A stretch of DNA of 64,000 bases. Source: an archaeon. Lineage in GTDB: Archaea; Asgardarchaeota; Heimdallarchaeia; Heimdallarchaeales; Kariarchaeaceae. A program made the translations under genes and the position numbers. The stretch is taken from contig JAJRQD010000026.1 of NCBI GenBank assembly GCA_024280435.1, positions 11,257 to 75,256 on the forward strand, given 5' to 3'. Positions 17,700 to 40,231 of the stretch are shown here, in pieces. How positions within the stretch are numbered: the stretch's first letter is position 1; every line of letters begins with the position of its first letter. Below the pieces are notes generated by a model. The model saw only the letters and a program-made list of their open reading frames with translations. It did no database searches and was not told the DNA's origin.

Positions 17700-19577
17700 T
17701 TATTTTTTCAGAGATAGAGCCATAATTTTCTCAACTCTTTTGGACATTTTATTGAAATCGGGTACATCTCCATCCGCCAATCTTGCATTATCAAGTATCT
17801 GATGTATAGTCAGATCGATAATCTCATCATCAGCATTTGCCTCAAATTTCTCATTAAGATCTTTGATTATCTCATGTTCGGGATTGAGTTGTAATACCTT
17901 GCCCATCATTGGTAGAGACATAGTGGAACCAGATTGAGTCTCCATTATCTTCATCGCCCTCTGAAGATCCGATGACATTCCACCTTTGGGTGTGACCAAA
18001 CGTGCAACAGCAGAGATCAGCCTATCAGATGTTTTTACATCTGCAATTGTACCTCCCAGAGTATCTGCAAAACGATCCATCAGTTTTCCAATAGGCCCTG
18101 TTCTCTCTTTCTTCTTAGGTTCCTCATCCTCTTCACCCTCTTTTGGCTCCTCTGGAGGATCTAATTCAACTGATTCATCCTGATCAATAAGGAAGAATTT
18201 TTTCTCATTGTAATCATGAAGATGCATCATTAAAAATGAGTCGATGGCTTCTCCTAGTAGGATAACCTCATAACCCTCTTTCTCATAATATTCAAGATGT
18301 GGGCTCTTTTTCAGTGCTTCAAGATCAAATCCGGACAGATAATATATCTCCTCCTGATCTGGTTTCATCCTCTCGACATACTGTGCAAGAGTTGTAGAAC
18401 CATCTTTTCCATCCTCATGTGTTGTGTGGAAACGAAGCAGTTCAACTAATCTATCCTTGAATTTATCATTGGATGCTATACCTTCTTTGATGAATGGACC
18501 AAACTCTCTGAAGAACTCAAGGTATTTCTCCCCATCATCCTTTGCCATATCCTCAAGTGTTGACAGGATCTTTTTGTGGAGATAATTCTTCATCTGTCTC
18601 TGCATTCTTGAACTCTGCACAACCTCACGGGATACATTTAGCTCAAAATCCTCTGCATCAACCACACCTATAACAAATCTAAGATACTCGGGTAATATAT
18701 CCTTGTTCTTATCATCAATCAGTATCTTTCGGTTGTAAAGTTTAATACCCCAATCACTATCCTGCTGATTGAACATTTTATTCTTTGTCGGGGGTATGTA
18801 CAGTAATCCATAGAATAGACTAGGTGATTCAACTCTTACGTGTATCTTAGTGGTGTAATCACCAAATTGACCGAGATGATTATAGAATTCTTTATACTGC
18901 TCATCAGTCACCTCACTGGGAGATACTCTCCAAAGTGCTGTTTGTTCATTTAATGTATCCTCACCCATTTTAATTGGAAACTCAATATAATTACTGTACT
19001 GACTTACAAGTGACTTTATTCGGTAGTCCTCAAGATATTCACTCTCATCCTCTTTGACATAGAGTATAATATCAGTACCTCGGGTATCCTTATCACACTC
19101 CTCAATTGAGAATGAATTCTGACCTGTTGAGCTCCATTTATGTGCCTTTTCACCAGGAATTGCAGATTTACTGATCACATCAACCTCATCTGCAACGAGA
19201 AATGTTGAGTAAAAGCCAACACCAAATTGACCAATAAGTGTCTCATCCCCACTCTCAATTGCTTTGATAAACTCCTCAGTACCGGACTGAGCAATTGTTC
19301 CCAGGTTCTTCACCATTTCATCCTTTGTCATACCAATACCATAGTCACGAATAGTGATTGTCTTGGCCTCTTTGTCAAGAATGATCTCAATCTCAAGTTC
19401 CCTCTCCTCATCAAAAATCTCCTCATTGGTAAGTTGTCTTATTCTTACCTTATTCAAGGCATCAGATGCGTTTGATAGGACCTCTCTCAGAAATACCTCT
19501 TTCTGTTGATAAAGGCTGTTGATTATGATATCTAATATCTTTGTTGTATCTGTCTTAAATTCATATTCTGAACTCAT
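17700..19577 (-). CDS. htpG: Hsp90-family chaperone HtpG
   Basis: 625 aa. GHKL ATPase N-terminus (FLRELISNASDALDK-like: FLREVLSNASDALNK), IGQFGVGFYS motif, and full middle and C-terminal domains. Confidence 0.9.
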   Translation of the reverse strand: MSSEYEFKTDTTKILDIIINSLYQQKEVFLREVLSNASDALNKVRIRQLTNEEIFDEERELEIEIILDKEAKTITIRDYGIGMTKDEMVKNLGTIAQSGTEEFIKAIESGDETLIGQFGVGFYSTFLVADEVDVISKSAIPGEKAHKWSSTGQNSFSIEECDKDTRGTDIILYVKEDESEYLEDYRIKSLVSQYSNYIEFPIKMGEDTLNEQTALWRVSPSEVTDEQYKEFYNHLGQFGDYTTKIHVRVESPSLFYGLLYIPPTKNKMFNQQDSDWGIKLYNRKILIDDKNKDILPEYLRFVIGVVDAEDFELNVSREVVQSSRMQRQMKNYLHKKILSTLEDMAKDDGEKYLEFFREFGPFIKEGIASNDKFKDRLVELLRFHTTHEDGKDGSTTLAQYVERMKPDQEEIYYLSGFDLEALKKSPHLEYYEKEGYEVILLGEAIDSFLMMHLHDYNEKKFFLIDQDESVELDPPEEPKEGEEDEEPKKKERTGPIGKLMDRFADTLGGTIADVKTSDRLISAVARLVTPKGGMSSDLQRAMKIMETQSGSTMSLPMMGKVLQLNPEHEIIKDLNEKFEANADDEIIDLTIHQILDNARLADGDVPDFNKMSKRVEKIMALSLKK

Positions 19578-19755: not shown

Positions 19756-20139
19756 ATGAAAAATTATGACATTATAGAAGTTAAAACTTTTGACAAAAAT
19801 AATATGGGAAACACTAAATTTAATGATTTGATGAGAAATGAACACTTTGAATTTCATCCAAATGATCCATATTCAGAAAATAAACTGAACGATAAACAAA
19901 AAGAAGATTTCAAGAGTATTGTTCAACCACTTATCAGCAAATCATGGTTTATTAAGAAAAATGATGAAATTATAGGTTATGCAATGCTATTCAGCAACAA
20001 TTCTGAATTTCCTCAGAATGTATTTGATGAGGATATGGGATTGTTTAAATTGTACATTTTGAAAAAATACAGATGTAAAAAAGCTGGAACTATCTTATAT
20101 GCAAAAATTATTTCTGAAGGTAAAAATATCAATCTTTAA
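19756..20139 (+). CDS. GNAT-like acetyltransferase (small)
   Basis: 127 aa; GYAMLF...LYILKKYRCKKAGTILYAKI resembles the GNAT motif A region. Confidence 0.45.
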   Translation: MKNYDIIEVKTFDKNNMGNTKFNDLMRNEHFEFHPNDPYSENKLNDKQKEDFKSIVQPLISKSWFIKKNDEIIGYAMLFSNNSEFPQNVFDEDMGLFKLYILKKYRCKKAGTILYAKIISEGKNINL

Positions 20140-20202: not shown

Positions 20203-20772
20203 TTGATTTCTCAAACCTCAGAAAGCCGATTATATCTGGATAATTTAAATCAGGAATTAATTGCAAAATGGAATAAAATACAAATTCCTCCAGAATACTC
20301 GCTTGTTATTGTAGAAGTAATTGAGGAGGAGTTTTTGAATGAATTATGTGAATTTTATGATTTTCTGAATAACAATACCACCATTGAAAATAATAATGAG
20401 ATCCCAACAAACTATTTACCTGAGAATCGAAGATTTGATGAGAACCTATATAAACAGCTTGGAAGTACCTGGTTAACACTTGTATTAAAGAACAATAATA
20501 ATCGAATAATAGGACTCACAGAGATGATCTTCGATCCTAAAGAACCACACAGGATTCGTCAAAATCTTACAGGTATAGATCCAAAATACAGAGGGAATGG
20601 ATACGGTAGATTAATTAAGGTAAAATTAATCGGGTTAGTAAAAGAAAAATATGCAGATCTAAAATATATATACACAGGTAATAATATCACCAATCAATCA
20701 ATTTTGAATATAAACAATAAACTCGGATATAAAACTGAAAATATAGTATACAATTACATAATTGACCTGTAA
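20203..20772 (+). CDS. GNAT-family N-acetyltransferase
   Basis: 189 aa; the IDPKYRGNGYGRLIK motif A region is typical of GNAT enzymes. Confidence 0.6.
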   Translation: MISQTSESRLYLDNLNQELIAKWNKIQIPPEYSLVIVEVIEEEFLNELCEFYDFLNNNTTIENNNEIPTNYLPENRRFDENLYKQLGSTWLTLVLKNNNNRIIGLTEMIFDPKEPHRIRQNLTGIDPKYRGNGYGRLIKVKLIGLVKEKYADLKYIYTGNNITNQSILNINNKLGYKTENIVYNYIIDL

Positions 20773-20883: not shown

Positions 20884-21975
20884 ATGGCAATTGATACACA
20901 GCTACCAATATTGGGGATAGAGCAAACTAAAAAAATACTTAGTCAGATTATGGGTAAAATTAACAAAGAGGGAAGTCAGGGAATATTTCTCTGGGGACCA
21001 CCAGGAATAGGAAAATCTGCACTTATCAAGCAACTGGCTGAGGAGCATAATATGAAACTAAGTGATGTGAGACTCCCATTACTTGATCCGGTTGATCTGC
21101 GAGGTCTTCCTATGATTGATAAGGAGGCAGGAGTGGCAAAATGGTTACCACCAGATTTCTTACCAAAGCAGAACAGCAAAAAAGCAGGTATACTACTTTT
21201 GGATGAGATTAATGCTGCGCCACCATCAATACAGGCATCTGCATATCAATTGATACTCGACCGTAGAATTGGTAGTTATAAACTTCCAAAAAATTGGGTT
21301 GTGATTGCAGCAGGAAACAGAGTGTCGGACAGAGCAGTGGCATTTAAACTACCCAGTGCATTGGCAAACAGGTTCACACATCTTGAACTCTCACCAGATG
21401 CAGATGAGTGGATAAGATGGGCCATTGCAAATGAGATTGACCCTCTGATCATTGCTTTCATCAAATCACAGCCATCAATGCTATTTCAATTTGATCCACA
21501 AAGATTACCAATTGCTTTTCCATCACCAAGGTCATGGGCATTTGCATCCAATTTATCAGAATTAAGAAAGACAAACCTACTATTGTACCTATCTGCATTA
21601 CAGGGTACTGTTGGAAATGCCACAGAAGAAATTTTCAGAAGTTTTATCGAGTATGAGAATGATGTTCCCAATATAGAGGACATACTATCGGGTAAGCCAT
21701 ATGAACTGCCACAACCAAATCAACTTGATATTCTCTACATTGTATTTGCAAATATTATAACATCACTGCTAAAAAAATTAACTGAAGAGAGAGTATCTAA
21801 TTTTTTCAACTATGCCATGCAATATGACAATACATCAGCTGCGGATTATTCAACAATGCTATTATTTGAACTGATCAAACAAATAAAATATCAGAACCAA
21901 AGCAATCTGTATGTTGTTATGAATGTAAAGGGCTATTCAGATTGGTTGTCAAAAAATATGGAAATAACTAGTTAA
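20884..21975 (+). CDS. MoxR/AAA_5-family AAA+ ATPase
   Basis: Walker A GPPGIGKS; Walker B LLLDEIN; sensor IAAGNR. About 360 aa, typical of the MoxR/CbbQ/GvpN group. Confidence 0.8.
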   Translation: MAIDTQLPILGIEQTKKILSQIMGKINKEGSQGIFLWGPPGIGKSALIKQLAEEHNMKLSDVRLPLLDPVDLRGLPMIDKEAGVAKWLPPDFLPKQNSKKAGILLLDEINAAPPSIQASAYQLILDRRIGSYKLPKNWVVIAAGNRVSDRAVAFKLPSALANRFTHLELSPDADEWIRWAIANEIDPLIIAFIKSQPSMLFQFDPQRLPIAFPSPRSWAFASNLSELRKTNLLLYLSALQGTVGNATEEIFRSFIEYENDVPNIEDILSGKPYELPQPNQLDILYIVFANIITSLLKKLTEERVSNFFNYAMQYDNTSAADYSTMLLFELIKQIKYQNQSNLYVVMNVKGYSDWLSKNMEITS

Positions 21976-22611
21976 TTATTTGTGTACATGTTTCAACTGT
22001 GGAGTTATAAGAAAAGCAAACAGGGTACAAAGGTGCAATAGCTGTCGGGAGAAATGCAGATATGCAATAAATATAAAGTAACCCCAGAGTATCAAAATAC
22101 ATTCAATGGTGACACCAACATAGCGTGTGGAATTTCACAACTTAAAATTTGTATGTGGAAATAAGATGATGACTGCGAGGTGTTACTCTCATGAAAAAAA
22201 AGCAGTTATTGCAATTAAGAAATATATAATTGATCAATTTTGAAAGGTGGAAACATCAAAACATCAATAACTGCCATATAAATATATCGCGAAACAATTA
22301 TTAAAGGTATTCATTACCTGTCGGATTATATCACAAATCAATGATATCACTAAATTATAGAATAATAGCACATTTTAATCTACTGTGAATAGTAAATCAG
22401 ATCAAAATCACCTAATGATGTATTACGTAGACTTATAAGTATAATATCATTTCTTCTATACTTTTAATCGCTTTCCAGGTCAGTATTATTTTTTTTTAAT
22501 GTATTTTACGATTTAGTAAACCACCTCTACCAAAAGGATGGGACTTCTTGCTATTTATTAAAAAACACTTGGATTATTTTTATATTATTATAGTATCTAA
22601 ATTTTAATTGA

Positions 22612-22824
22612 TTATACGTCTCTAGCTTGAATTGTTTTTCTTCCATTTAATTTTGCTCTTGAAGCAGCATCATCAAGGATACTTGCAACACTTTTAGAGA
22701 CAGCATCAAACAGATCAGAACCGATGTTATAATCACCAGTTGATTTTAGATATTCACGAATTTTTGACTGAACGACCAGCATTGGAGCTGGGTTTTTCTT
22801 TTTACTAGCTTTCTTTTTTGCCAT
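22612..22824 (-). CDS. Histone-fold protein with Lys-rich N-terminal tail and truncated alpha3
   Basis: MAKKKASKKKNPAP tail, then a histone fold (alpha1-L1-alpha2 ...ASRAKLNGRKTIQARDV) that ends 5 aa after the L2 GRKTI motif. AGGTGG Shine-Dalgarno 10 nt upstream of this ATG. The ORF track's earlier Met at 22860 would read through the Shine-Dalgarno sequence. Confidence 0.6.
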   Translation of the reverse strand: MAKKKASKKKNPAPMLVVQSKIREYLKSTGDYNIGSDLFDAVSKSVASILDDAASRAKLNGRKTIQARDV

Positions 22825-22901
22825 GTTTTTGTTTCCACCTTGTCTCGACCTTGTCAACAATATTACTTGCTTTAAAGGCGAGTCGAATTAATTATAAGGG
22901 C

Positions 22902-22911
22902 TTTATATAAA
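22902..22911 (-). promoter_or_regulatory. Putative TATA box of the histone gene
   Basis: TTTATATAAA about 80 nt upstream of the histone ATG, which would leave a roughly 55-nt 5'UTR containing the Shine-Dalgarno sequence. Confidence 0.3.
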
Positions 22912-23234
22912 AAGGTTTCTCAAACCCATTCAAAATCCGGTTAAAAGAGATTTTATAGATGTCCTTTACAATACTTGCTGAATTGATGAAATTATTCAAC
23001 TGTGTGATAGTTAATAAATGTATTGCATATTCAGAGGATTTTAAGACTGAATCCGAATTTCAAACCACAATGTATCGTGTTTTTTGGTACTTCATGCTTT
23101 TTGTCCTTCTTGGCGCCTTTTATTTAGCGCAAATTGCATTGAAAAAACAATGTACAACAAATGCAGAAAAGGGTGGCTCTACAGATAAAATTGCGTTTTT
23201 TCAATTATACTAGAATTATGGATTTTCAACTTAA

Positions 23235-23597
23235 TTAGCCCAATAAAGTATCATCATCTGAAAAATTTACTGCACCCACCTCAAATAGAAGCACTTTTTT
23301 TCTTTCCACCTGATTTATTCTCTCAGCCAGCTCTAATGCTGAATGGCTGAATGCAGATCCAACAATCAAGGCACCATCAAGCTCAGTATTGTTTACAGAT
23401 TTTATTGCCTGATTTATTTTATCCACCCCAATTTTTCTTTTCCAATTATAATGAAGAATACCCATATTTATTGCTTTATCACCTATCTTCGAATGAAATT
23501 CTCCAATAAAATTTGAGGCTTCTCCTGTTTTGGTTCTTGGGATTGTATCTGTTACATACCCACCAAGTGATTCAACCATCTCTCTGAATAAAGACAT
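23235..23597 (-). CDS. Mrr-cat-like restriction endonuclease-fold protein
   Basis: 120 aa; the pattern GY.V..T....GD..I......(K)...AIKSV......GALIVGSAFSHSALELA matches the PD-(D/E)xK Mrr catalytic-domain layout. Confidence 0.45.
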   Translation of the reverse strand: MSLFREMVESLGGYVTDTIPRTKTGEASNFIGEFHSKIGDKAINMGILHYNWKRKIGVDKINQAIKSVNNTELDGALIVGSAFSHSALELAERINQVERKKVLLFEVGAVNFSDDDTLLG

Positions 23598-23835: not shown

Positions 23836-24849
23836 ATGCAGATTGCAGAAGATCTGATACCATATTTTAAGAGCCAGATCAAGGATGAATTTGGTAATAC
23901 TGCAAGATTTGCCAGTATTCAGGATGTGGAATTTGACCAGATACTTCTTGCAGAAATTAACAATATTCATCTCAAGGTCAAAGTACTATCAGATCAGGGT
24001 GCTTGGACACACGACTTGATTATCAGAGAGTTCAAAGATCTTGATAAGTTAAACAGAGAAATTGAGAGATACAATGAATTAGAGAGGAGATGTATTCTCT
24101 TTGAGAATATATTTCCAGCCCCCTTAATCAATGTAGATAAAAATAACAGACAATTGATTTATGAAAAAAATACCGGTCTACAAATAGATAAGATTGAATT
24201 CACAAATAATCTCAAAGATTATCAGCTAGGCAAGATATTTGCCATGATACAGGGTGAGAAATCAAATCCACTTGACGCATCCACTATGAAAGAATTACTT
24301 GAGTATGTGTTATCCACATTACCATTCACTGAGGATGAACGTACCAGGATTTCAATGCTCTTAGAGCCACATTACTATATACTACCCAACTCACTTGGTG
24401 GTTATGTACCATGCACTTTATTTGATCCAACAACAATTGAAGTCAACAAATTATCAGATATTACCAGGGAGAATATAGATGATAACAAAGCATTGTATTT
24501 GACAATACCAATACAGATACCTGAAAGTAATATTGTGGATAGAATGGCAGATATTGCATCCTATTACATAGAAGAGACATACAAGGAATTCTGTACCACC
24601 GGAAGTGTACATAACACCAAGGAGAAAATATATGTATTCTTTGAGGGCTACAATAGTGTGGCAAAACAGATTAACATGCCAACAATGAAGGAACTGTACA
24701 AACATGGCATAACTCTTGATATACAGATGTTATTGATATTCTGGATAATGATACTGAGTAAAATTGGTTCTGGTGAGAATGTATGGTCTAAAGATGTGAC
24801 CAGATTCACTTATTTTATTCTTCTAAAGAAACCATTTTTATTGTTCTAA
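23836..24849 (+). CDS. Hypothetical protein
   Basis: 337 aa; no motif recognised. Confidence 0.4.
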   Translation: MQIAEDLIPYFKSQIKDEFGNTARFASIQDVEFDQILLAEINNIHLKVKVLSDQGAWTHDLIIREFKDLDKLNREIERYNELERRCILFENIFPAPLINVDKNNRQLIYEKNTGLQIDKIEFTNNLKDYQLGKIFAMIQGEKSNPLDASTMKELLEYVLSTLPFTEDERTRISMLLEPHYYILPNSLGGYVPCTLFDPTTIEVNKLSDITRENIDDNKALYLTIPIQIPESNIVDRMADIASYYIEETYKEFCTTGSVHNTKEKIYVFFEGYNSVAKQINMPTMKELYKHGITLDIQMLLIFWIMILSKIGSGENVWSKDVTRFTYFILLKKPFLLF

Positions 24850-25934
24850 TATTTAAAATTACTGAGTTCATTCTCTACCTTACCAAGTACTTGCACAAGA
24901 TCATCATAGTTTGACTGGACTGAGTTGAAATCTCTGCTTGCACTTGATACATCATTTTTTATTGTGACAGCAATTTTATGTGCATTATCAATCTGGGATG
25001 ATAACTGATGCATAGAACCGGTGATCATATCCAATGAATCTTTTGCATTGTCACTCACCTGATGTAACTGTGCTTTAACATTACTTGCTGAATTACTGAT
25101 GTGATTTGATAATCTTCTTAGATTAGAAGCTACCACTTCAAAACCCACTCCAAATTCTCCTGATCTGGATGCTTCTATACCTGCATTCAATGCAAGCATC
25201 TGTGTCTGTTTTCCAATTGATCTCATCAGTTTAGATACATCATCAATAACTGTGATTGCATCATCAAAAGATGAGGTCAGATTATCTATTCCTGAAGATG
25301 AAATCGACAGATAACCCTTCAATTCCTGATATACTGCTATATTTGCCAATGAATTATCAATTCCTAGATTTGATTGTCCAAGAGTACTTGATGTTTTGTT
25401 GAATTTGTTTTCAATCATTGATAACTGATAATTTATCTCACGCATATTCTGATCAAATGATTTGAATGTGTGATTCATATCTTTTCTGAATTCATTGAAA
25501 TTCTTGATTGCCTTATCCTCAGATACACCATAGACAAATTCATCAGCAGCCACAAAGTTTCGATCTTTAAATCGTACTGAGCTCTTTTTTAATAGTTCCA
25601 ATGGTTTCAGATAAACTGTGTAATGAACCAGATAAGCAATTATTATTGCGATGACCACAATCATGGTTGATATAACTACCATTAGATCATTTTTCAGAAT
25701 GGAGAATATCAATGGTAATGTGGCAAAAATTATGGCAAAAACAGTCATGATATTAAGCTGATTATCGATTATTACCTGTTTAAGGGATCTTCTACTCTTA
25801 TCTTCTACAAATAGTTCTTCGTGGATCAAATCATCCCAAAAATAAATGAACTTATCCTTTGCTTCCTCATCTCCTTCTGATAGGAGAGCATTCAATACTT
25901 TTTTTACTCCAGATACCTTACTAGACATTCTCAA
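24846..25934 (-). CDS. Methyl-accepting chemotaxis protein-like membrane sensor
   Basis: TM segment near the N-terminus; the MCP signalling motif QTQMLALNAGIEASRSGEFGVGFEVVASNLRRLS. Confidence 0.65.
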   Translation of the reverse strand: MRMSSKVSGVKKVLNALLSEGDEEAKDKFIYFWDDLIHEELFVEDKSRRSLKQVIIDNQLNIMTVFAIIFATLPLIFSILKNDLMVVISTMIVVIAIIIAYLVHYTVYLKPLELLKKSSVRFKDRNFVAADEFVYGVSEDKAIKNFNEFRKDMNHTFKSFDQNMREINYQLSMIENKFNKTSSTLGQSNLGIDNSLANIAVYQELKGYLSISSSGIDNLTSSFDDAITVIDDVSKLMRSIGKQTQMLALNAGIEASRSGEFGVGFEVVASNLRRLSNHISNSASNVKAQLHQVSDNAKDSLDMITGSMHQLSSQIDNAHKIAVTIKNDVSSASRDFNSVQSNYDDLVQVLGKVENELSNFKY

Positions 25935-37663: not shown

Positions 37664-40231
37664 TTACTCAATAATTACATGATCATTATCGAGATTTAGT
37701 CTGATCTCATTCTTATCAGTACCAGATAGCAGATAATTTGCCAATTCATTACTGATATATTTCTGTATCGCCCTTTTTAATGGTCTTGCACCAAACGCGG
37801 GATCATACCCTTTTTCAGCAAGAAATTCCTTGACCTCATCAGGTATTATCAGAGTGATATCCTGATCTGCAAGTCTATTATTTAACCTCTGTAGCTGTAT
37901 CTCAACAATACCCTTCATATCATCACGGGATAATGTTCTGAATATCACCAGCTCATCAAATCTATTGATAAATTCGGGTAGAAAATACATCTTCAATTCT
38001 TCAAAGACAGCCTTCTCGATCTCATCCATTAATTTGCCCTCACGGTTTAGCTCAAATATTTTGGCACTACCAACATTGCTGGTGGCAATTATCACAGTAT
38101 TGGTGAAATCAACAACTCTACCCTTGGCATCTGTGAGACGCCCATCATCTAGTATCTGCAAGAACATGTTGAATACATTTGGATGAGCTTTCTCCATCTC
38201 ATCAAGTAGTATGACAGAGTATGGCTTTCTTCTGACCTGTTCTGTTAGTTGGCCACCCTCATCATATCCAACATATCCCGGTGGGGAACCGATCAGTTTT
38301 GCCACAGAATGTGCTTCCTTGTACTCAGACATATCAATGCGAATTAGCATATTCTCATCATCAAATAGAAATTCAGCCAGTGACTTTGCCAGTTCAGTCT
38401 TTCCTACACCGGTAGAACCCATGAACAGGAATGAACCCAGTGGTCTATCAGTTGCGGTGATACCAGCTCTTGCACGTCTGATTGTCTGTGCTAATTTCTC
38501 CACAGCAACTTCCTGTCCGATCACTCTTTTGGTGAGTATCTGTTCCATATTCAGAAGTTTATCCTTCTCCTCCTGTACTATCTTGCTAGCTGGGATTCCA
38601 GTCCACAGAGCAATTATATTAGCAATATCAATCTCACCAATCTCCTCCCTTAACAAATTATCCGCACCCTCAGACAGTTTATCTTTTTCAGACTGAAGTT
38701 TTGCATTCAGATCGGGGAGTAAGCCATACTGTATACGTGCCATCTCATCAAGGTTACCAGATCTCTGAGCCTGTTCCATCATTATCTTGGTCTCCTCGAT
38801 TGCGGATTTGTACTTGCTGATATTATCAATTATATCTTTCTCCTGTTCCCATCTGACTTTTATGGCAGCTAGTTCAGTGGATAGTTGCTCAATCTGTTCC
38901 TCGATAGCTTTGACTCTATTCTTAGATACGGCATCGGTCTCTCTTCGTATACTATATTTCTCCATCTCAAGTTGTCGTATTTTCCTATCAAGTTCATCAA
39001 TCTCAGTGGGTACAGACTGTATCTCCATTGATAGAGCTGCTGCTGCCTCATCTAATAGATCTATCGCCTTATCAGGGAGGAACCTATCAGATATATATCT
39101 TGATGATAACACAGCAGCTGCAACTATTGCCTCATCATGTATACGAATGCCATGATGCACCTCATATTTCTCTTTAAGACCCCTGAGAATAGATATGGTA
39201 TCAGTCACGCTTGGTTCATCCACCATTATTTTCTGGAAACGTCTCTCCAGAGCACTATCTTTCTCGATATATTTTTTATACTCATCAAAGGTTGTTGCAC
39301 CGATGGCATGGAGAGAACCACGTGCAAGTGCAGGTTTCAGCAGGTTAGACGCATCCATTGCACCTTGTGTGGCACCAGCACCGACAAGTAGATGTATCTC
39401 ATCAAGGAAAAGAATTATCTGTCCCTCTGCCTCTTCTATCTCTTTGACAACAGCTTTCAATCTCTCCTCAAATTCACCCCTGAATTTTGCACCTGCAACC
39501 AGTGCACCCATATCAAGGGCCATGACAGTTTTATTTTTCAGTGATTCGGGTACATCCTGATTGACTATTCTCTGTGCAAGTCCCTCTACAATTGCTGTTT
39601 TTCCAGTACCAGGCTCACCTAGTAATATTGGATTATTTTTTGTTCTTCGGGATAGTATGTGTATCACACGTCTGATCTCTGCATCTCTGCCAATGACCGG
39701 ATCGAGCTTTCCCTTCATTGCCAGTTCTGAGAAATTGATAGCATATTGTTCGAGTGATTGGAATGAGTTCTCTGCATCCTGGTTATTTATTGCATTAGAT
39801 CCTCTAATTTCATCCAATGCCATCTCAATTGTTTTTTTAGAAATATTCTGATGACTTATTAGTTTCTGAAATGGTTTAGATTTGGCCAGCATTCCTTTGA
39901 TGATAGTATCAATTGATACATACTCATCATTGCTTGCAATCATTATTTTCTCGGCTTGATTAAGAGCAGAGTTCAGATCAGATGAGAGAGATGGAGAGCC
40001 TCCGGATACTTTTGGAAATTTATTGTATTCCTCTTCTATCTGATTTTTGAATAGTTGTATATTGGCACCTGCTTTCTGCAGAACTGATTGTAAAATACTC
40101 TGATCCTGTTCTAGAAGTATTTTAATCAGATGGATAGCAGATATTTCGGGGTGTTCGTTCATATCAGCCAGTGATTGTGCGTCTTGAATGGCTTCTTGAG
40201 CCTTGTATGTATATTTTCGTATATTTACCAT
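37664..40231 (-). CDS. clpB: ClpB (Hsp100) disaggregase
   Basis: 855 aa; two AAA+ modules (GEPGTGKT and GSTGVGKTE Walker A motifs) with a coiled-coil middle domain. Confidence 0.9.

What the first reader, a model, noticed from the sequence alone, without database searches (positions are those of the whole stretch)
22612..22911. Histone-fold protein with Lys-rich N-terminal tail and truncated alpha3 helix
MAKKKASKKKNPAP precedes a histone fold that terminates five residues after the L2 GRKTI motif (…GRKTIQARDV-stop), so alpha3 is essentially absent. Short-alpha3 histones have been described as a distinct, face-binding, non-nucleosomal class in a few bacteria and archaea. A eukaryote-like basic tail on such a variant is unusual. 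The gene has a TATA-like element and a Shine-Dalgarno sequence and sits in a 1.2-kb AT-rich region free of other genes.
Basis: partly seen in the sequence, partly recalled or inferred. Interest (0 to 1): 0.7.

Follow-up and report, generated by a model that had tools for sequence, protein, structure and literature searches.

The report
Tailed face-to-face histone of Heimdallarchaeia
This is a real, conserved 70-residue gene for a short, "alpha3-truncated" (face-to-face type) histone with a lysine-rich tail. It comes from a Heimdallarchaeia/Kariarchaeaceae-like Asgard archaeon, and this kind of DNA-packaging protein is already described, so it is a correct but largely ordinary find.

Summary
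On the minus strand, 22824..22612 encodes a 70-aa protein: a disordered tail (MAKKKASKKKNPAP, 6 Lys) followed by a 56-aa histone fold that ends five residues after GRKTI.

The AlphaFold2 model gives alpha1 19-29, alpha2 37-59 and a one-turn alpha3 67-69. It superposes at 0.8-1.1 Å on the three solved alpha3-truncated histones (HBb, HTkC, HLp). Nucleosomal histones reach only TM about 0.5.

The truncation is not an error:
- All 35 close homologues have a fold of exactly 56 residues.
- dN/dS is 0.12-0.24.
- No alpha3 is hidden in another frame.

Every residue shown experimentally to close the face-to-face (FtF) tetramer is present and invariant (R56, N60, R62, D69, C-terminus one residue after the Asp). 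The likeliest mode is therefore a toroidal tetramer wrapping about 60 bp, with four basic tails adding charge.

Close relatives are all Heimdallarchaeota/Kariarchaeota MAGs, and all are tailed. DPANN homologues are mostly untailed, and bacterial ones are often tailed.

The literature already reports FtF histones in Heimdall LC_2, and abundant alpha3-truncated histones in a Kariarchaeaceae metaproteome that lacks nucleosomal histones.

A conserved BRE/TATA and a Shine-Dalgarno sequence were confirmed by footprinting.

Verdict: new member of a known kind, modest interest.

The parts
22612..22824 (-). Complete CDS (70 codons plus TAA stop) of the tailed alpha3-truncated (FtF-type) histone
   Evidence: Searches give the ORF. 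One search finds 38 homologues down to E 7e-35. One search gives dN/dS of 0.12-0.24 against relatives. Searches give HBb/HLp/HTkC as best PDB matches (profile E 7e-14 to 9e-11).
22783..22824 (-). Codons 1-14: disordered Lys-rich N-terminal tail MAKKKASKKKNPAP (6 Lys, no acidic residue, net +6)
   Evidence: mean pLDDT 53-57 over residues 1-20 and below 50 for residues 8-15; tails of 9-23 aa (median 14, median 43% Lys) in all 36 clade members. 29 of 35 homologues have Ile/Val rather than Met at position 15, so in those the tail cannot be skipped by an internal start.
22615..22782 (-). Codons 15-70: 56-residue histone fold. alpha1 is residues 19-29 (22738-22770). alpha2 is residues 37-59 (22648-22716). 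L2 with GRKT plus a one-turn alpha3 is residues 60-70 (22615-22647).
   Evidence: DSSP on the AF2 model, pLDDT 85-96 over the fold; rmsd 0.8-1.1 Å to HTkC 9f2c, HBb 9ezz and HLp 9qt0; fold length is 56 in 35 of 35 homologues.
22615..22659 (-). Codons 56-70 (RAKLNGRKTIQARDV), the predicted dimer-dimer (face-to-face) interface. R56, N60, R62 and D69 are present, and the free C-terminal carboxylate is on V70.
   Evidence: Mapped through the alignments onto HTkC R45 and HLp R49/N53/R55/D62/F63. All are invariant in 35 of 35 homologues. HBb, a dimer, has Ser and Asp at the two key positions.
22835..22840 (-). Shine-Dalgarno-like AGGTGG, with 10 nt between it and the ATG
   Evidence: AGGTGGAAA is one of only two conserved blocks in the spacer alignment with L001 and L005, and it is present in L002 and, as GAGGTG, in L003.
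22906..22921 (-). Archaeal promoter core GAGAAACC-TTTTTATA (BRE-like plus TATA box), about 82-97 nt upstream of the ATG
   Evidence: One search gives the coordinates. GAGAAA(C/T)CTTTTTA is invariant in window, L001 and L005. Similar TATA elements lie at comparable distances in L002, L003, L004 and L007. The function is inferred, and the TSS has not been mapped.
22560..22565 (-). T6 run 46 nt after the stop codon: candidate archaeal oligo-T terminator
   Evidence: Read directly. This is inference from the known use of oligo-T terminators in archaea, and was not tested.

Best explanation
The gene encodes a face-to-face (FtF) type member of the alpha3-truncated histone superfamily, in a Heimdallarchaeia (Kariarchaeaceae-like) Asgard archaeon.

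Shown here:
- The protein has a 14-residue disordered, lysine-rich tail and a 56-residue histone fold whose alpha3 is a single turn.
- It is under purifying selection.
- It has its own conserved BRE/TATA promoter and Shine-Dalgarno sequence.
- It carries, invariantly, every residue that experiments on HTkC and HLp identified as closing the tetramer.

Inferred:
- Two chains form the usual antiparallel histone-fold dimer.
- Two dimers close into a toroidal tetramer. R56 salt-bridges to the C-terminal carboxylate of V70 of the opposite dimer, supported by N60 and R62.
- Because both interfaces are used, no hypernucleosome can grow.
- About 60 bp of DNA wraps around the ring, contacting S20/K21, R23 and K27 (alpha1), N33/S36 (L1) and K63/T64 (L2).
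- The four tails (+6 each, against +2 for each fold) project outward. They add non-specific DNA affinity and charge neutralisation, and may be modification sites.

From the literature: in this lineage such histones are abundant and nucleosomal histones are absent. The protein is therefore probably the main chromatin-packaging protein.
For: Family membership:
- phmmer against the PDB gives HBb 8cmp/8fvx (E 1e-7), HTkC 9f2c (1e-6) and HLp 9qt0 (1e-5), with nucleosomal-type hits far weaker.
- The profile search gives 7e-14, 7e-14 and 9e-11, against 3e-3 for HMfA.
- AF2 model: alpha1 19-29, alpha2 37-59, alpha3 67-69, fold pLDDT 85-96.
- Foldseek: HTkC rmsd 0.8 Å (TM normalised to target 0.91), HBb 1.0 Å, HLp 1.0-1.1 Å. 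Nucleosomal histones give TM about 0.5.

Tetramer signature:
- HTkC R45 bridges to the C-terminal carboxylate, and R45A turns the tetramer into a dimer.
- HLp R49/N53/R55 plus C-terminal residues form the interface.
- The window protein has R56/N60/R62/D69 with an identical C-terminal register, invariant in 35 of 35 homologues.

DNA-contact residues of HLp map to conserved polar or basic residues.

A real gene with a real tail:
- dN/dS is 0.12-0.24.
- The tail is present in all 36 clade members.
- The SD lies before ATG-1 and is conserved.

Host: close relatives and syntenic contigs are labelled Heimdallarchaeota/Kariarchaeota.

Role in the literature:
- Heimdallarchaeota LC2 encodes FtF histones but lacks nucleosomal histones (10.64898/2025.12.06.692711).
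- The Kariarchaeaceae MAG KowaHeim1 lacks nucleosomal histones and has abundant alpha3-truncated histones in its metaproteome (10.64898/2026.07.02.735847).

No second histone-fold gene was found in the 64-kb window.
Against: - No multimer prediction or experiment was possible, so the tetramer rests on residue conservation alone.
- By raw sequence score the nearest solved relative is the dimeric HBb.
- The protein keeps the Lys of the RKT motif, which Schwab et al. describe as typical of bacterial dimers rather than of the FtF profile. HTkC, a proven tetramer, also has RKT.
- Abundance and the absence of nucleosomal histones are taken from related genomes, not from this genome. Only 64 kb could be inspected.
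- The role of the tail is entirely inferred. In the HLp crystals the short tail is simply disordered.
Confidence: 0.7

Rival explanations
1. The protein is an HBb-like dimeric alpha3-truncated histone. It binds as a dimer and bends DNA like HU/IHF instead of forming a DNA-wrapping tetramer, and the tail adds affinity.
For: HBb is the top sequence hit in both the phmmer and the profile searches and ties for the best structural match. The RKTxxxxD motif with Lys is shared with bacterial dimer histones. No oligomer test could be run.
Against: HBb has Ser and Asp where the window protein has R56 and N60. Loss of exactly this Arg is what converts HTkC to an HBb-like dimer. The C-terminus ends in the register needed for the Arg-carboxylate bridge in 35 of 35 homologues. 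The 'bacterial dimer' category was defined as exclusive to bacteria, and the fold is slightly closer to archaeal DPANN FtF-like sequences (0.45-0.51 identity) than to bacterial ones (0.39-0.47).
Confidence: 0.2
2. The protein is a histone-fold protein with a role other than chromatin, for example a low-abundance regulator or a partner of another protein. The basic tail would then be incidental.
For: All curated family models score below threshold: Pfam DUF1931 16.3 against 21.8, Histone 15.2 against 26.4, NCBIfam archaea_histone 20.6 against 50. Some minor alpha3 histone categories, such as ZZ histones, are poorly expressed.
Against: It is a stand-alone gene with a strong conserved promoter and SD. 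DNA-contact positions are conserved. The three characterised relatives all bind DNA and are highly expressed. A Kariarchaeaceae metaproteome shows abundant alpha3-truncated histones.
Confidence: 0.07
3. The finding is an artefact. Either it is a nucleosomal histone gene truncated by a sequencing or assembly error or a pseudogene, or the tail is an annotation artefact because translation really starts at Met15.
For: Met15 exists in the window protein, and the untailed DPANN homologues begin at the equivalent position.
Against: The stop position is identical in all 35 homologues from independent assemblies. There is no alpha3-like sequence in any frame downstream. The gene is under purifying selection. 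alpha2 is also shortened, as in the true alpha3-truncated family. 29 of 35 homologues have Ile/Val instead of Met at position 15 while keeping an in-frame Lys-rich MAKKK extension. The conserved SD precedes ATG-1, not Met15.
Confidence: 0.02

Closest known systems
HTkC of Thermococcus kodakarensis (archaeal FtF histone, PDB 9F2C)
   Same: Both have a single 56-59-residue alpha3-truncated fold. The model superposes at 0.8 Å. The critical Arg is shared (R45 = R56), as are GRKT, the xARxV C-terminus in the same register, and an archaeal host.
   Different: Sequence identity is only about 33%. HTkC has no N-terminal tail, has Glu where the window protein has N60, and coexists with the nucleosomal histones HTkA/B. 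The window's lineage reportedly lacks these.
HLp of Leptospira perolatii (bacterial FtF histone, PDB 9QT0-2)
   Same: The tetramer-interface residues R49/N53/R55/D62 correspond to R56/N60/R62/D69, with one residue after the Asp. HLp has a short positively charged N-terminal extension, is probably the main DNA organiser in a genome without other major NAPs, and wraps about 60 bp.
   Different: The host is bacterial, and identity is about 32%. L2 reads KRTT rather than GRKT. The tail is shorter and less Lys-rich.
HBb / Bd0055 of Bdellovibrio bacteriovorus (bacterial dimer histone, PDB 8CMP, 8FVX, 9EZZ)
   Same: It gives the best sequence score (36% identity), and shares the fold, the truncated alpha3 and the GRKTxxARD motif.
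   Different: HBb lacks the Arg and Asn of the tetramer interface, is a dimer that bends DNA, has no Lys-rich tail, and is bacterial.
Tailed nucleosomal histones of Asgard archaea (HLoB of Lokiarchaeum, HMpB of Hodarchaeales)
   Same: Both have a disordered Lys-rich N-terminal tail that begins MAKKK and continues with A/P/S-KKK (HLoB.1: MAKKKAPAKKKKAAPKK...). Both are from Asgard hosts and are abundant chromatin proteins.
   Different: Those have a full-length alpha3 and are predicted to form nucleosome-like particles. The window protein has the non-nucleosomal FtF fold. Tail similarity is compositional only, so homology cannot be claimed.
Heimdallarchaeota LC_2 / Kariarchaeaceae 'KowaHeim1' alpha3-truncated histones
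   Same: They share the clade and the family, and are described as FtF or alpha3-truncated histones in genomes without nucleosomal histones. They are abundant in a metaproteome. Homologues named Heimdallarchaeota/Kariarchaeaceae are 60-83% identical to the window protein.
   Different: The papers I could read do not discuss the Lys-rich tail on these proteins.

Membership tests
alpha3-truncated histone superfamily (Schwab et al. 2024, PMC11390915) | Histone fold alpha1-L1-alpha2-L2-alpha3 | tested here: met
   AF2 model with fold pLDDT 85-96. All top Foldseek hits are histones.
alpha3-truncated histone superfamily (Schwab et al. 2024, PMC11390915) | alpha3 of only 3-4 residues, against about 10 in nucleosomal histones | tested here: met
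   DSSP helix covers residues 67-69 only, and the protein ends at residue 70, five residues after GRKTI.
alpha3-truncated histone superfamily (Schwab et al. 2024, PMC11390915) | alpha2 shorter than in nucleosomal histones by 4-5 residues (about one turn) | tested here: met
   alpha2 spans residues 37-59, which is 23 residues. The model superposes at 1.1 Å or better on HLp, HTkC and HBb, whose alpha2 is one turn shorter than that of HMfB. The HMfB alpha2 length itself is taken from the literature.
alpha3-truncated histone superfamily (Schwab et al. 2024, PMC11390915) | Significant sequence similarity to characterised members, stronger than to nucleosomal histones | tested here: met
   Profile E-values are 7e-14 (HBb), 7e-14 (HLp) and 9e-11 (HTkC), against 3e-3 (HMfA).
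Face-to-face (FtF) histones | Conserved Arg at the end of alpha2 that bridges to the opposing C-terminal carboxylate (HTkC R45, HLp R49) | tested here: met
   R56 aligns to HTkC R45 and HLp R49. It is invariant in 35 of 35 homologues. Its role is shown.
Face-to-face (FtF) histones | Asn two residues before the L2 Arg (HLp N53, H. volcanii D4GZE0 N45) and the RD clamp (R...D) | tested here: met
   N60, R62 and D69 are present and invariant.
Face-to-face (FtF) histones | C-terminus ends right after the one-turn alpha3, so that the carboxylate can reach the Arg | tested here: met
   The protein ends one residue after D69, the same register as HTkC (..ARHV) and HLp (..PTDF). Fold length is 56 in 35 of 35 homologues.
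Face-to-face (FtF) histones | Forms a closed toroidal homotetramer (the feature by which the category was defined) | not testable with these tools
   Only single-chain AF2 was available. This needs AF-Multimer/AF3 or SEC-MALS.
Face-to-face (FtF) histones | Wraps about 60 bp of DNA around the tetramer | not testable with these tools
   Shown for HLp and HTkC only.
Bacterial dimer histones (HBb-like) | Lack of the tetramerisation Arg and Asn, and bacterial host | tested here: not met
   The window protein has R56 and N60 where HBb has Ser and Asp. Close relatives and syntenic contigs are archaeal. The category was defined as exclusive to bacteria.
Archaeal nucleosomal histones (HMfB-like; Pfam CBFD_NFYB_HMF, NCBIfam archaea_histone) | Full alpha3 contributing to the four-helix-bundle interface, and a score above the curated family thresholds | tested here: not met
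   alpha3 is 3 residues. PF00808 scores 13.2 against 21.4 bits, PF00125 15.2 against 26.4, and NF043032 20.6 against 50. TM to HMfA/B is about 0.55.
Pfam DUF1931 (pseudodimeric histones such as Aq_328) | Score above the gathering threshold, and a doublet (two-fold) architecture | tested here: not met
   The score is 16.3 against 21.8 bits, matching profile positions 20-53 of 138 only. The protein has a single fold. DUF1931 pseudodimers form a separate cluster. NCBI nevertheless labels some homologues 'DUF1931 domain-containing protein'.
Asgard tailed histones (HLoB/HMpB) | Lys-rich disordered N-terminal tail on a nucleosome-forming fold | tested here: not met
   The tail is present, but the fold is the non-nucleosomal alpha3-truncated type.

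The most novel reading that the evidence does not exclude
In the Kariarchaeaceae branch of Heimdallarchaeia, which has no nucleosomal histones, lysine-tail-based chromatin regulation (acetylation and deacetylation of an exposed N-terminal tail) may operate on a non-nucleosomal face-to-face tetramer. If so, the 'tail code' of Asgard and eukaryotic chromatin would be separable from the nucleosome itself. The tail could have been gained independently, or share an origin with the MAKKK..AKKK tails of Loki/Hod nucleosomal histones. My data show only three things. The tail is universal in this clade and mostly absent from DPANN homologues. Its composition, but not its sequence, is conserved. The nearby GNAT genes give no specific support.
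Probability: 0.12. Interest if true: 0.65.

Novelty: new member of a known kind. Interest (0 to 1): 0.3.

Why it matters
It adds one well-anatomised example to a recently recognised class. The example comes with a promoter, an SD, a tail and a full tetramer signature. It also documents that, within archaea, Lys-rich tails on face-to-face histones are a consistent feature of the Heimdall/Kari clade, whereas most DPANN homologues have none.

Heimdallarchaeia are the closest known relatives of eukaryotes, and this sub-lineage reportedly packages DNA without nucleosomal histones. A tailed non-nucleosomal histone is therefore a useful comparison point for asking whether histone tails evolved for charge and DNA affinity before they were used for regulation.

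The family, its occurrence in this lineage and its abundance are already published, so the finding does not change the picture.

Tried and rejected
- **Sequencing error or hidden alpha3.** I translated all three frames downstream and found nothing alpha3-like. The stop position is conserved in all homologues. Rejected.
- **Second histone gene or degraded paralogue.** I searched with phmmer/hmmsearch on six-frame fragments, using my own recalled HMfA/HMfB sequences and the family profile. I also ran tblastn on the whole window and on the 636-bp spacer. The only hit was the gene itself.
- **Functional link to the two GNAT acetyltransferase genes 2.5 kb away.** They neighbour the histone gene only in the same-species contig L075, not in other Heimdall/Kari loci. 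They show no specific similarity to the experimentally shown Asgard tail acetyltransferase LoHAT2. Not supported.
- **Non-coding RNA in the flanking spacers.** Rfam gave only a sub-threshold C/D-box hit (E 0.58), in a stretch that is not conserved in relatives. Rejected as probably chance.
- **The 84-aa ORF 22959-23213.** It has no Pfam or NCBIfam hit and no counterpart in L001 or L005. Probably not a gene.
- **Origin of the clade (bacterial or archaeal).** An NJ tree with bootstraps timed out. Mean fold identities are only marginally higher to DPANN than to bacterial sequences, which is too weak to call.
- **Exact protein look-up.** The window protein is not on record. A variant with one substitution is on a syntenic 6.8-kb NCBI MAG contig.
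- **Sigma-70 promoter and intrinsic-terminator scan.** Uninformative for an archaeon.

Full report
**1. What is there**

On the minus strand an ORF runs from the ATG at 22824 to a TAA stop at 22614-22612. It encodes 70 residues: MAKKKASKKKNPAPMLVVQSKIREYLKSTGDYNIGSDLFDAVSKSVASILDDAASRAKLNGRKTIQARDV. The mechanical ORF list extends it to a TTG at 22860, but every homologue begins MAK/MAR, so the ATG at 22824 is the start.

In-frame stops follow at once, and the other two frames downstream contain nothing helix-like. tblastn found no degraded copy either.

**2. It is a real, constrained gene**

The word-indexed search returned 38 homologues, with E-values down to 7e-35. In the 35 close ones:
- the fold is exactly 56 residues long;
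- K21, K27, R56, N60, R62, K63, T64 and D69 are invariant (alignment A1).

Codon comparison of the fold with six related loci gives dN/dS of 0.12-0.24 wherever dS is not saturated.

**3. Fold**

AlphaFold2 with the 27-sequence alignment gives mean pLDDT 79.7. The first 17 or so residues are low-confidence. The rest shows alpha1 19-29, alpha2 37-59 and a single turn 67-69.

| Foldseek target (PDB) | rmsd | TM score |
|---|---|---|
| HTkC 9f2c | 0.8 Å | 0.91 (normalised to target) |
| HBb 9ezz/8fvx | 1.0-1.2 Å | 0.84 (normalised to target) |
| HLp 9qt0/9qt1 | 1.0-1.1 Å | 0.88-0.90 (normalised to target) |
| Nucleosomal histones (H4, HMfA/B, Asgard HHoB) | 2.6-2.9 Å | about 0.5 |

Sequence searches of the PDB agree.

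Curated models are all sub-threshold: DUF1931 16.3 against 21.8 bits, Histone 15.2 against 26.4, CBFD_NFYB_HMF 13.2 against 21.4, and NCBIfam archaea_histone 20.6 against 50. This is why the homologues are mostly unannotated or labelled 'DUF1931'.

**4. Which kind of alpha3-truncated histone**

Schwab et al. 2024 (PMC11390915) define the alpha3 superfamily by a 3-4-residue alpha3 and a shortened alpha2. They split it into face-to-face (FtF) tetramers, bacterial dimers and minor categories. Experiments identify the residues that decide between the two modes:
- In HTkC, R45 salt-bridges to the C-terminal carboxylate of the opposite dimer. R45A converts the tetramer into an HBb-like dimer.
- In HLp the interface uses R49, S52, N53 and R55 against T61 and F63, and R55-D62 form the RD clamp.

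Through the pairwise alignments these map to R56, N60, R62 and D69, with V70 as the last residue in exactly the same register. All are invariant in the clade. HBb has Ser and Asp at the R56 and N60 positions.

The HLp residues that touch DNA are A13/S14/K15, K17, K21, T27/G29 and T56/T57. They map to Q19/S20/K21, R23, K27, N33/S36 and K63/T64, which are conserved polar or basic residues.

I therefore file the protein as FtF-type by every sequence criterion. Tetramer formation itself could not be tested, because only single-chain prediction was available.

**5. The tail**

Residues 1-14 contain 6 Lys and no acidic residue, giving net +6 against +2 for the fold.

| Group | Tail |
|---|---|
| 36 clade members | 9-23 residues (median 14), about 43% Lys; begins MA(K/R)K, otherwise varies freely in sequence and length |
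| DPANN homologues (Aenigmatarchaeota, Woesearchaeota, Micrarchaeota, Iainarchaeota and others) | mostly start directly at M(x)EMLVVQSK, with no tail (one Woesearchaeota sequence, L067, opens with a short MAKKAKVKS) |
| Bacterial homologues (Myxococcota, Planctomycetota, Bacteriovoracaceae) | often Lys-rich, up to 30-50 residues of AKKx repeats |

The first row is and the other two. Selection on the tail is on composition, as expected for a disordered DNA-binding extension.

The tail is translated:
- 29 of 35 homologues have Ile/Val, not Met, at position 15.
- The conserved SD precedes ATG-1.

[quoted passage not shown] So the tail is an exception among archaeal FtF histones but typical of this clade.

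Loki nucleosomal tailed histones begin almost identically (HLoB.1 MAKKKAPAKKKKAAPKK...). This is low-complexity similarity and no argument for homology.

**6. Expression signals**

Upstream on the coding strand lies GAGAAACC-TTTTTATA (22921-22906), and AGGTGG (22840-22835) sits 10 nt before the ATG.

I aligned the whole 380-415-bp upstream spacer with those of two diverged relatives (L001 and L005, whose histones are 83% and 66% identical). The only conserved blocks were GAGAAA(C/T)CTTTTTA and AGGTGGAAA. Similar TATA elements lie at 70-90 nt in four further loci.

From general knowledge of archaeal promoters I infer a TSS near 22880-22885 and a 5' UTR of about 55-60 nt. A T6 run lies 46 nt after the stop (22565-22560) and is a candidate terminator. 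Neither has been mapped.

**7. Context and host**

The window is ordinary chromosome. It carries aldehyde:ferredoxin oxidoreductase, an MFS transporter, a P-type ATPase, HtpG, ClpB, MoeA and an MCP-domain protein.

A 6.8-kb NCBI MAG contig (GCA_024278115.1) is collinear and nearly identical. More distant Heimdallarchaeota/Kariarchaeota contigs keep the MoxR-like AAA ATPase and the small Mrr_cat-like gene next to the histone gene. All named close homologues are Heimdallarchaeota or Kariarchaeaceae.

The gene sits in a 1,259-bp interval with no other conserved gene. GC there is 0.29-0.33, against 0.35 overall.

**8. What is already known**

- FtF histones were described in 2024 and are widespread in archaea, including Asgard archaea.
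- The HTkC preprint notes that Heimdallarchaeota LC2 encodes FtF histones but lacks nucleosomal ones. LC_2 is listed under Kariarchaeaceae in the 2026 preprint's tables.
- That 2026 preprint reports that the Kariarchaeaceae MAG KowaHeim1 lacks canonical histones and has abundant alpha3-truncated histones in its metaproteome.
- The HLp paper includes a Heimdallarchaeum sequence in its alignment.
- An exhaustive profile search finds 1,948 representatives at E of 1e-3 or below, and 279 at 1e-10 or below. Many are tandem doublets.

In the papers I could read I found no explicit discussion of the Lys-rich tail on the Heimdall/Kari FtF histones.

**9. Verdict**

The novelty claim is overstated: this is a new member of a known kind.

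The best-supported mechanism is a toroidal FtF tetramer that wraps about 60 bp, with four basic tails increasing DNA affinity and charge neutralisation. It probably serves as the principal chromatin protein (confidence 0.7). The HBb-like dimer is the main rival (0.2).

The most novel surviving reading is tail-based regulation on a non-nucleosomal scaffold in the eukaryote-proximal Heimdallarchaeia. It has no direct support here. The neighbouring GNAT genes are neither conserved neighbours nor LoHAT2-like.

Noticed in passing
window 19756-20139 (+) and 20203-20772 (+): Two adjacent GNAT acetyltransferase genes (PF00583: E 1.7e-7, and 1.6e-3 just below threshold) lie about 2.5 kb from the Lys-tailed histone gene. 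They neighbour it only in the same-species contig L075, and show no specific similarity to the Asgard tail acetyltransferase LoHAT2.
   Followed up: yes
window 20884-21975 (+) and 23235-23597 (-); loci L001, L002, L004, L005, L007: A MoxR-like AAA ATPase and a 120-aa protein with a sub-threshold Mrr_cat (restriction-endonuclease-like) match stay next to the histone gene in several diverged Heimdall/Kari contigs. This may be plain synteny or a functional link. The 337-aa neighbour (23836-24849) has no family match and is duplicated in L004.
   Followed up: partly
window 22244-22255 (+), inside the gene-free spacer 21976-22611: This is an exact 12-nt copy (AAGGTGGAAACA) of the histone gene's Shine-Dalgarno region, on the opposite strand. 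It is one of only two perfect AAGGTGGAAA sites in 64 kb. No start codon or ORF follows, and there is no histone remnant. The 636-bp spacer (GC 0.286) shrinks to 90-230 bp in the relatives L005 and L001. It is unexplained.
   Followed up: partly
window 22978-23056 (+): A sub-threshold Rfam C/D-box match (SNORD36, 23.7 bits against 30, E 0.58) lies in the histone upstream spacer, overlapping the 84-aa ORF. The stretch is not conserved in L001 or L005, so the match is probably chance.
   Followed up: yes
window 22959-23213 (+): An 84-aa ORF with one hydrophobic segment is called as a gene in the NCBI MAG (L075). It has no family hit and no counterpart in the equivalent spacers of L001 and L005, so it is probably not a gene.
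   Followed up: yes
L001 (JAJRXM010000050.1, 3.6 kb, binned as Candidatus Zixiibacteriota): This contig carries the Heimdall-type tailed histone (83% identical to the window protein) together with the same AAA ATPase (78%) and Mrr-like (55%) neighbours. It is almost certainly a misbinned archaeal contig.
   Followed up: partly
proteins P0039-P0060: About half of the best-scoring family representatives are natural tandem doublets of the alpha3-truncated fold (115-135 aa, two matched stretches). The top hit, P0039, has a short MAKKGKE tail. Some others have signal-peptide-like N-termini (P0040, P0048).
   Followed up: no
loci L070, L071, L073, L074 (Myxococcota and related MAGs): These bacterial relatives carry very long (30-50 aa) H1-like AKKx-repeat tails on the same 56-aa fold. 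They show how far tail expansion goes in this family.
   Followed up: no
window 17700-19577 (-), 37664-40231 (-), 24846-25934 (-): Genes for bacterial-type chaperones HtpG (HSP90) and ClpB, and for a protein with a methyl-accepting chemotaxis signalling domain, are present in this archaeal window.
   Followed up: no
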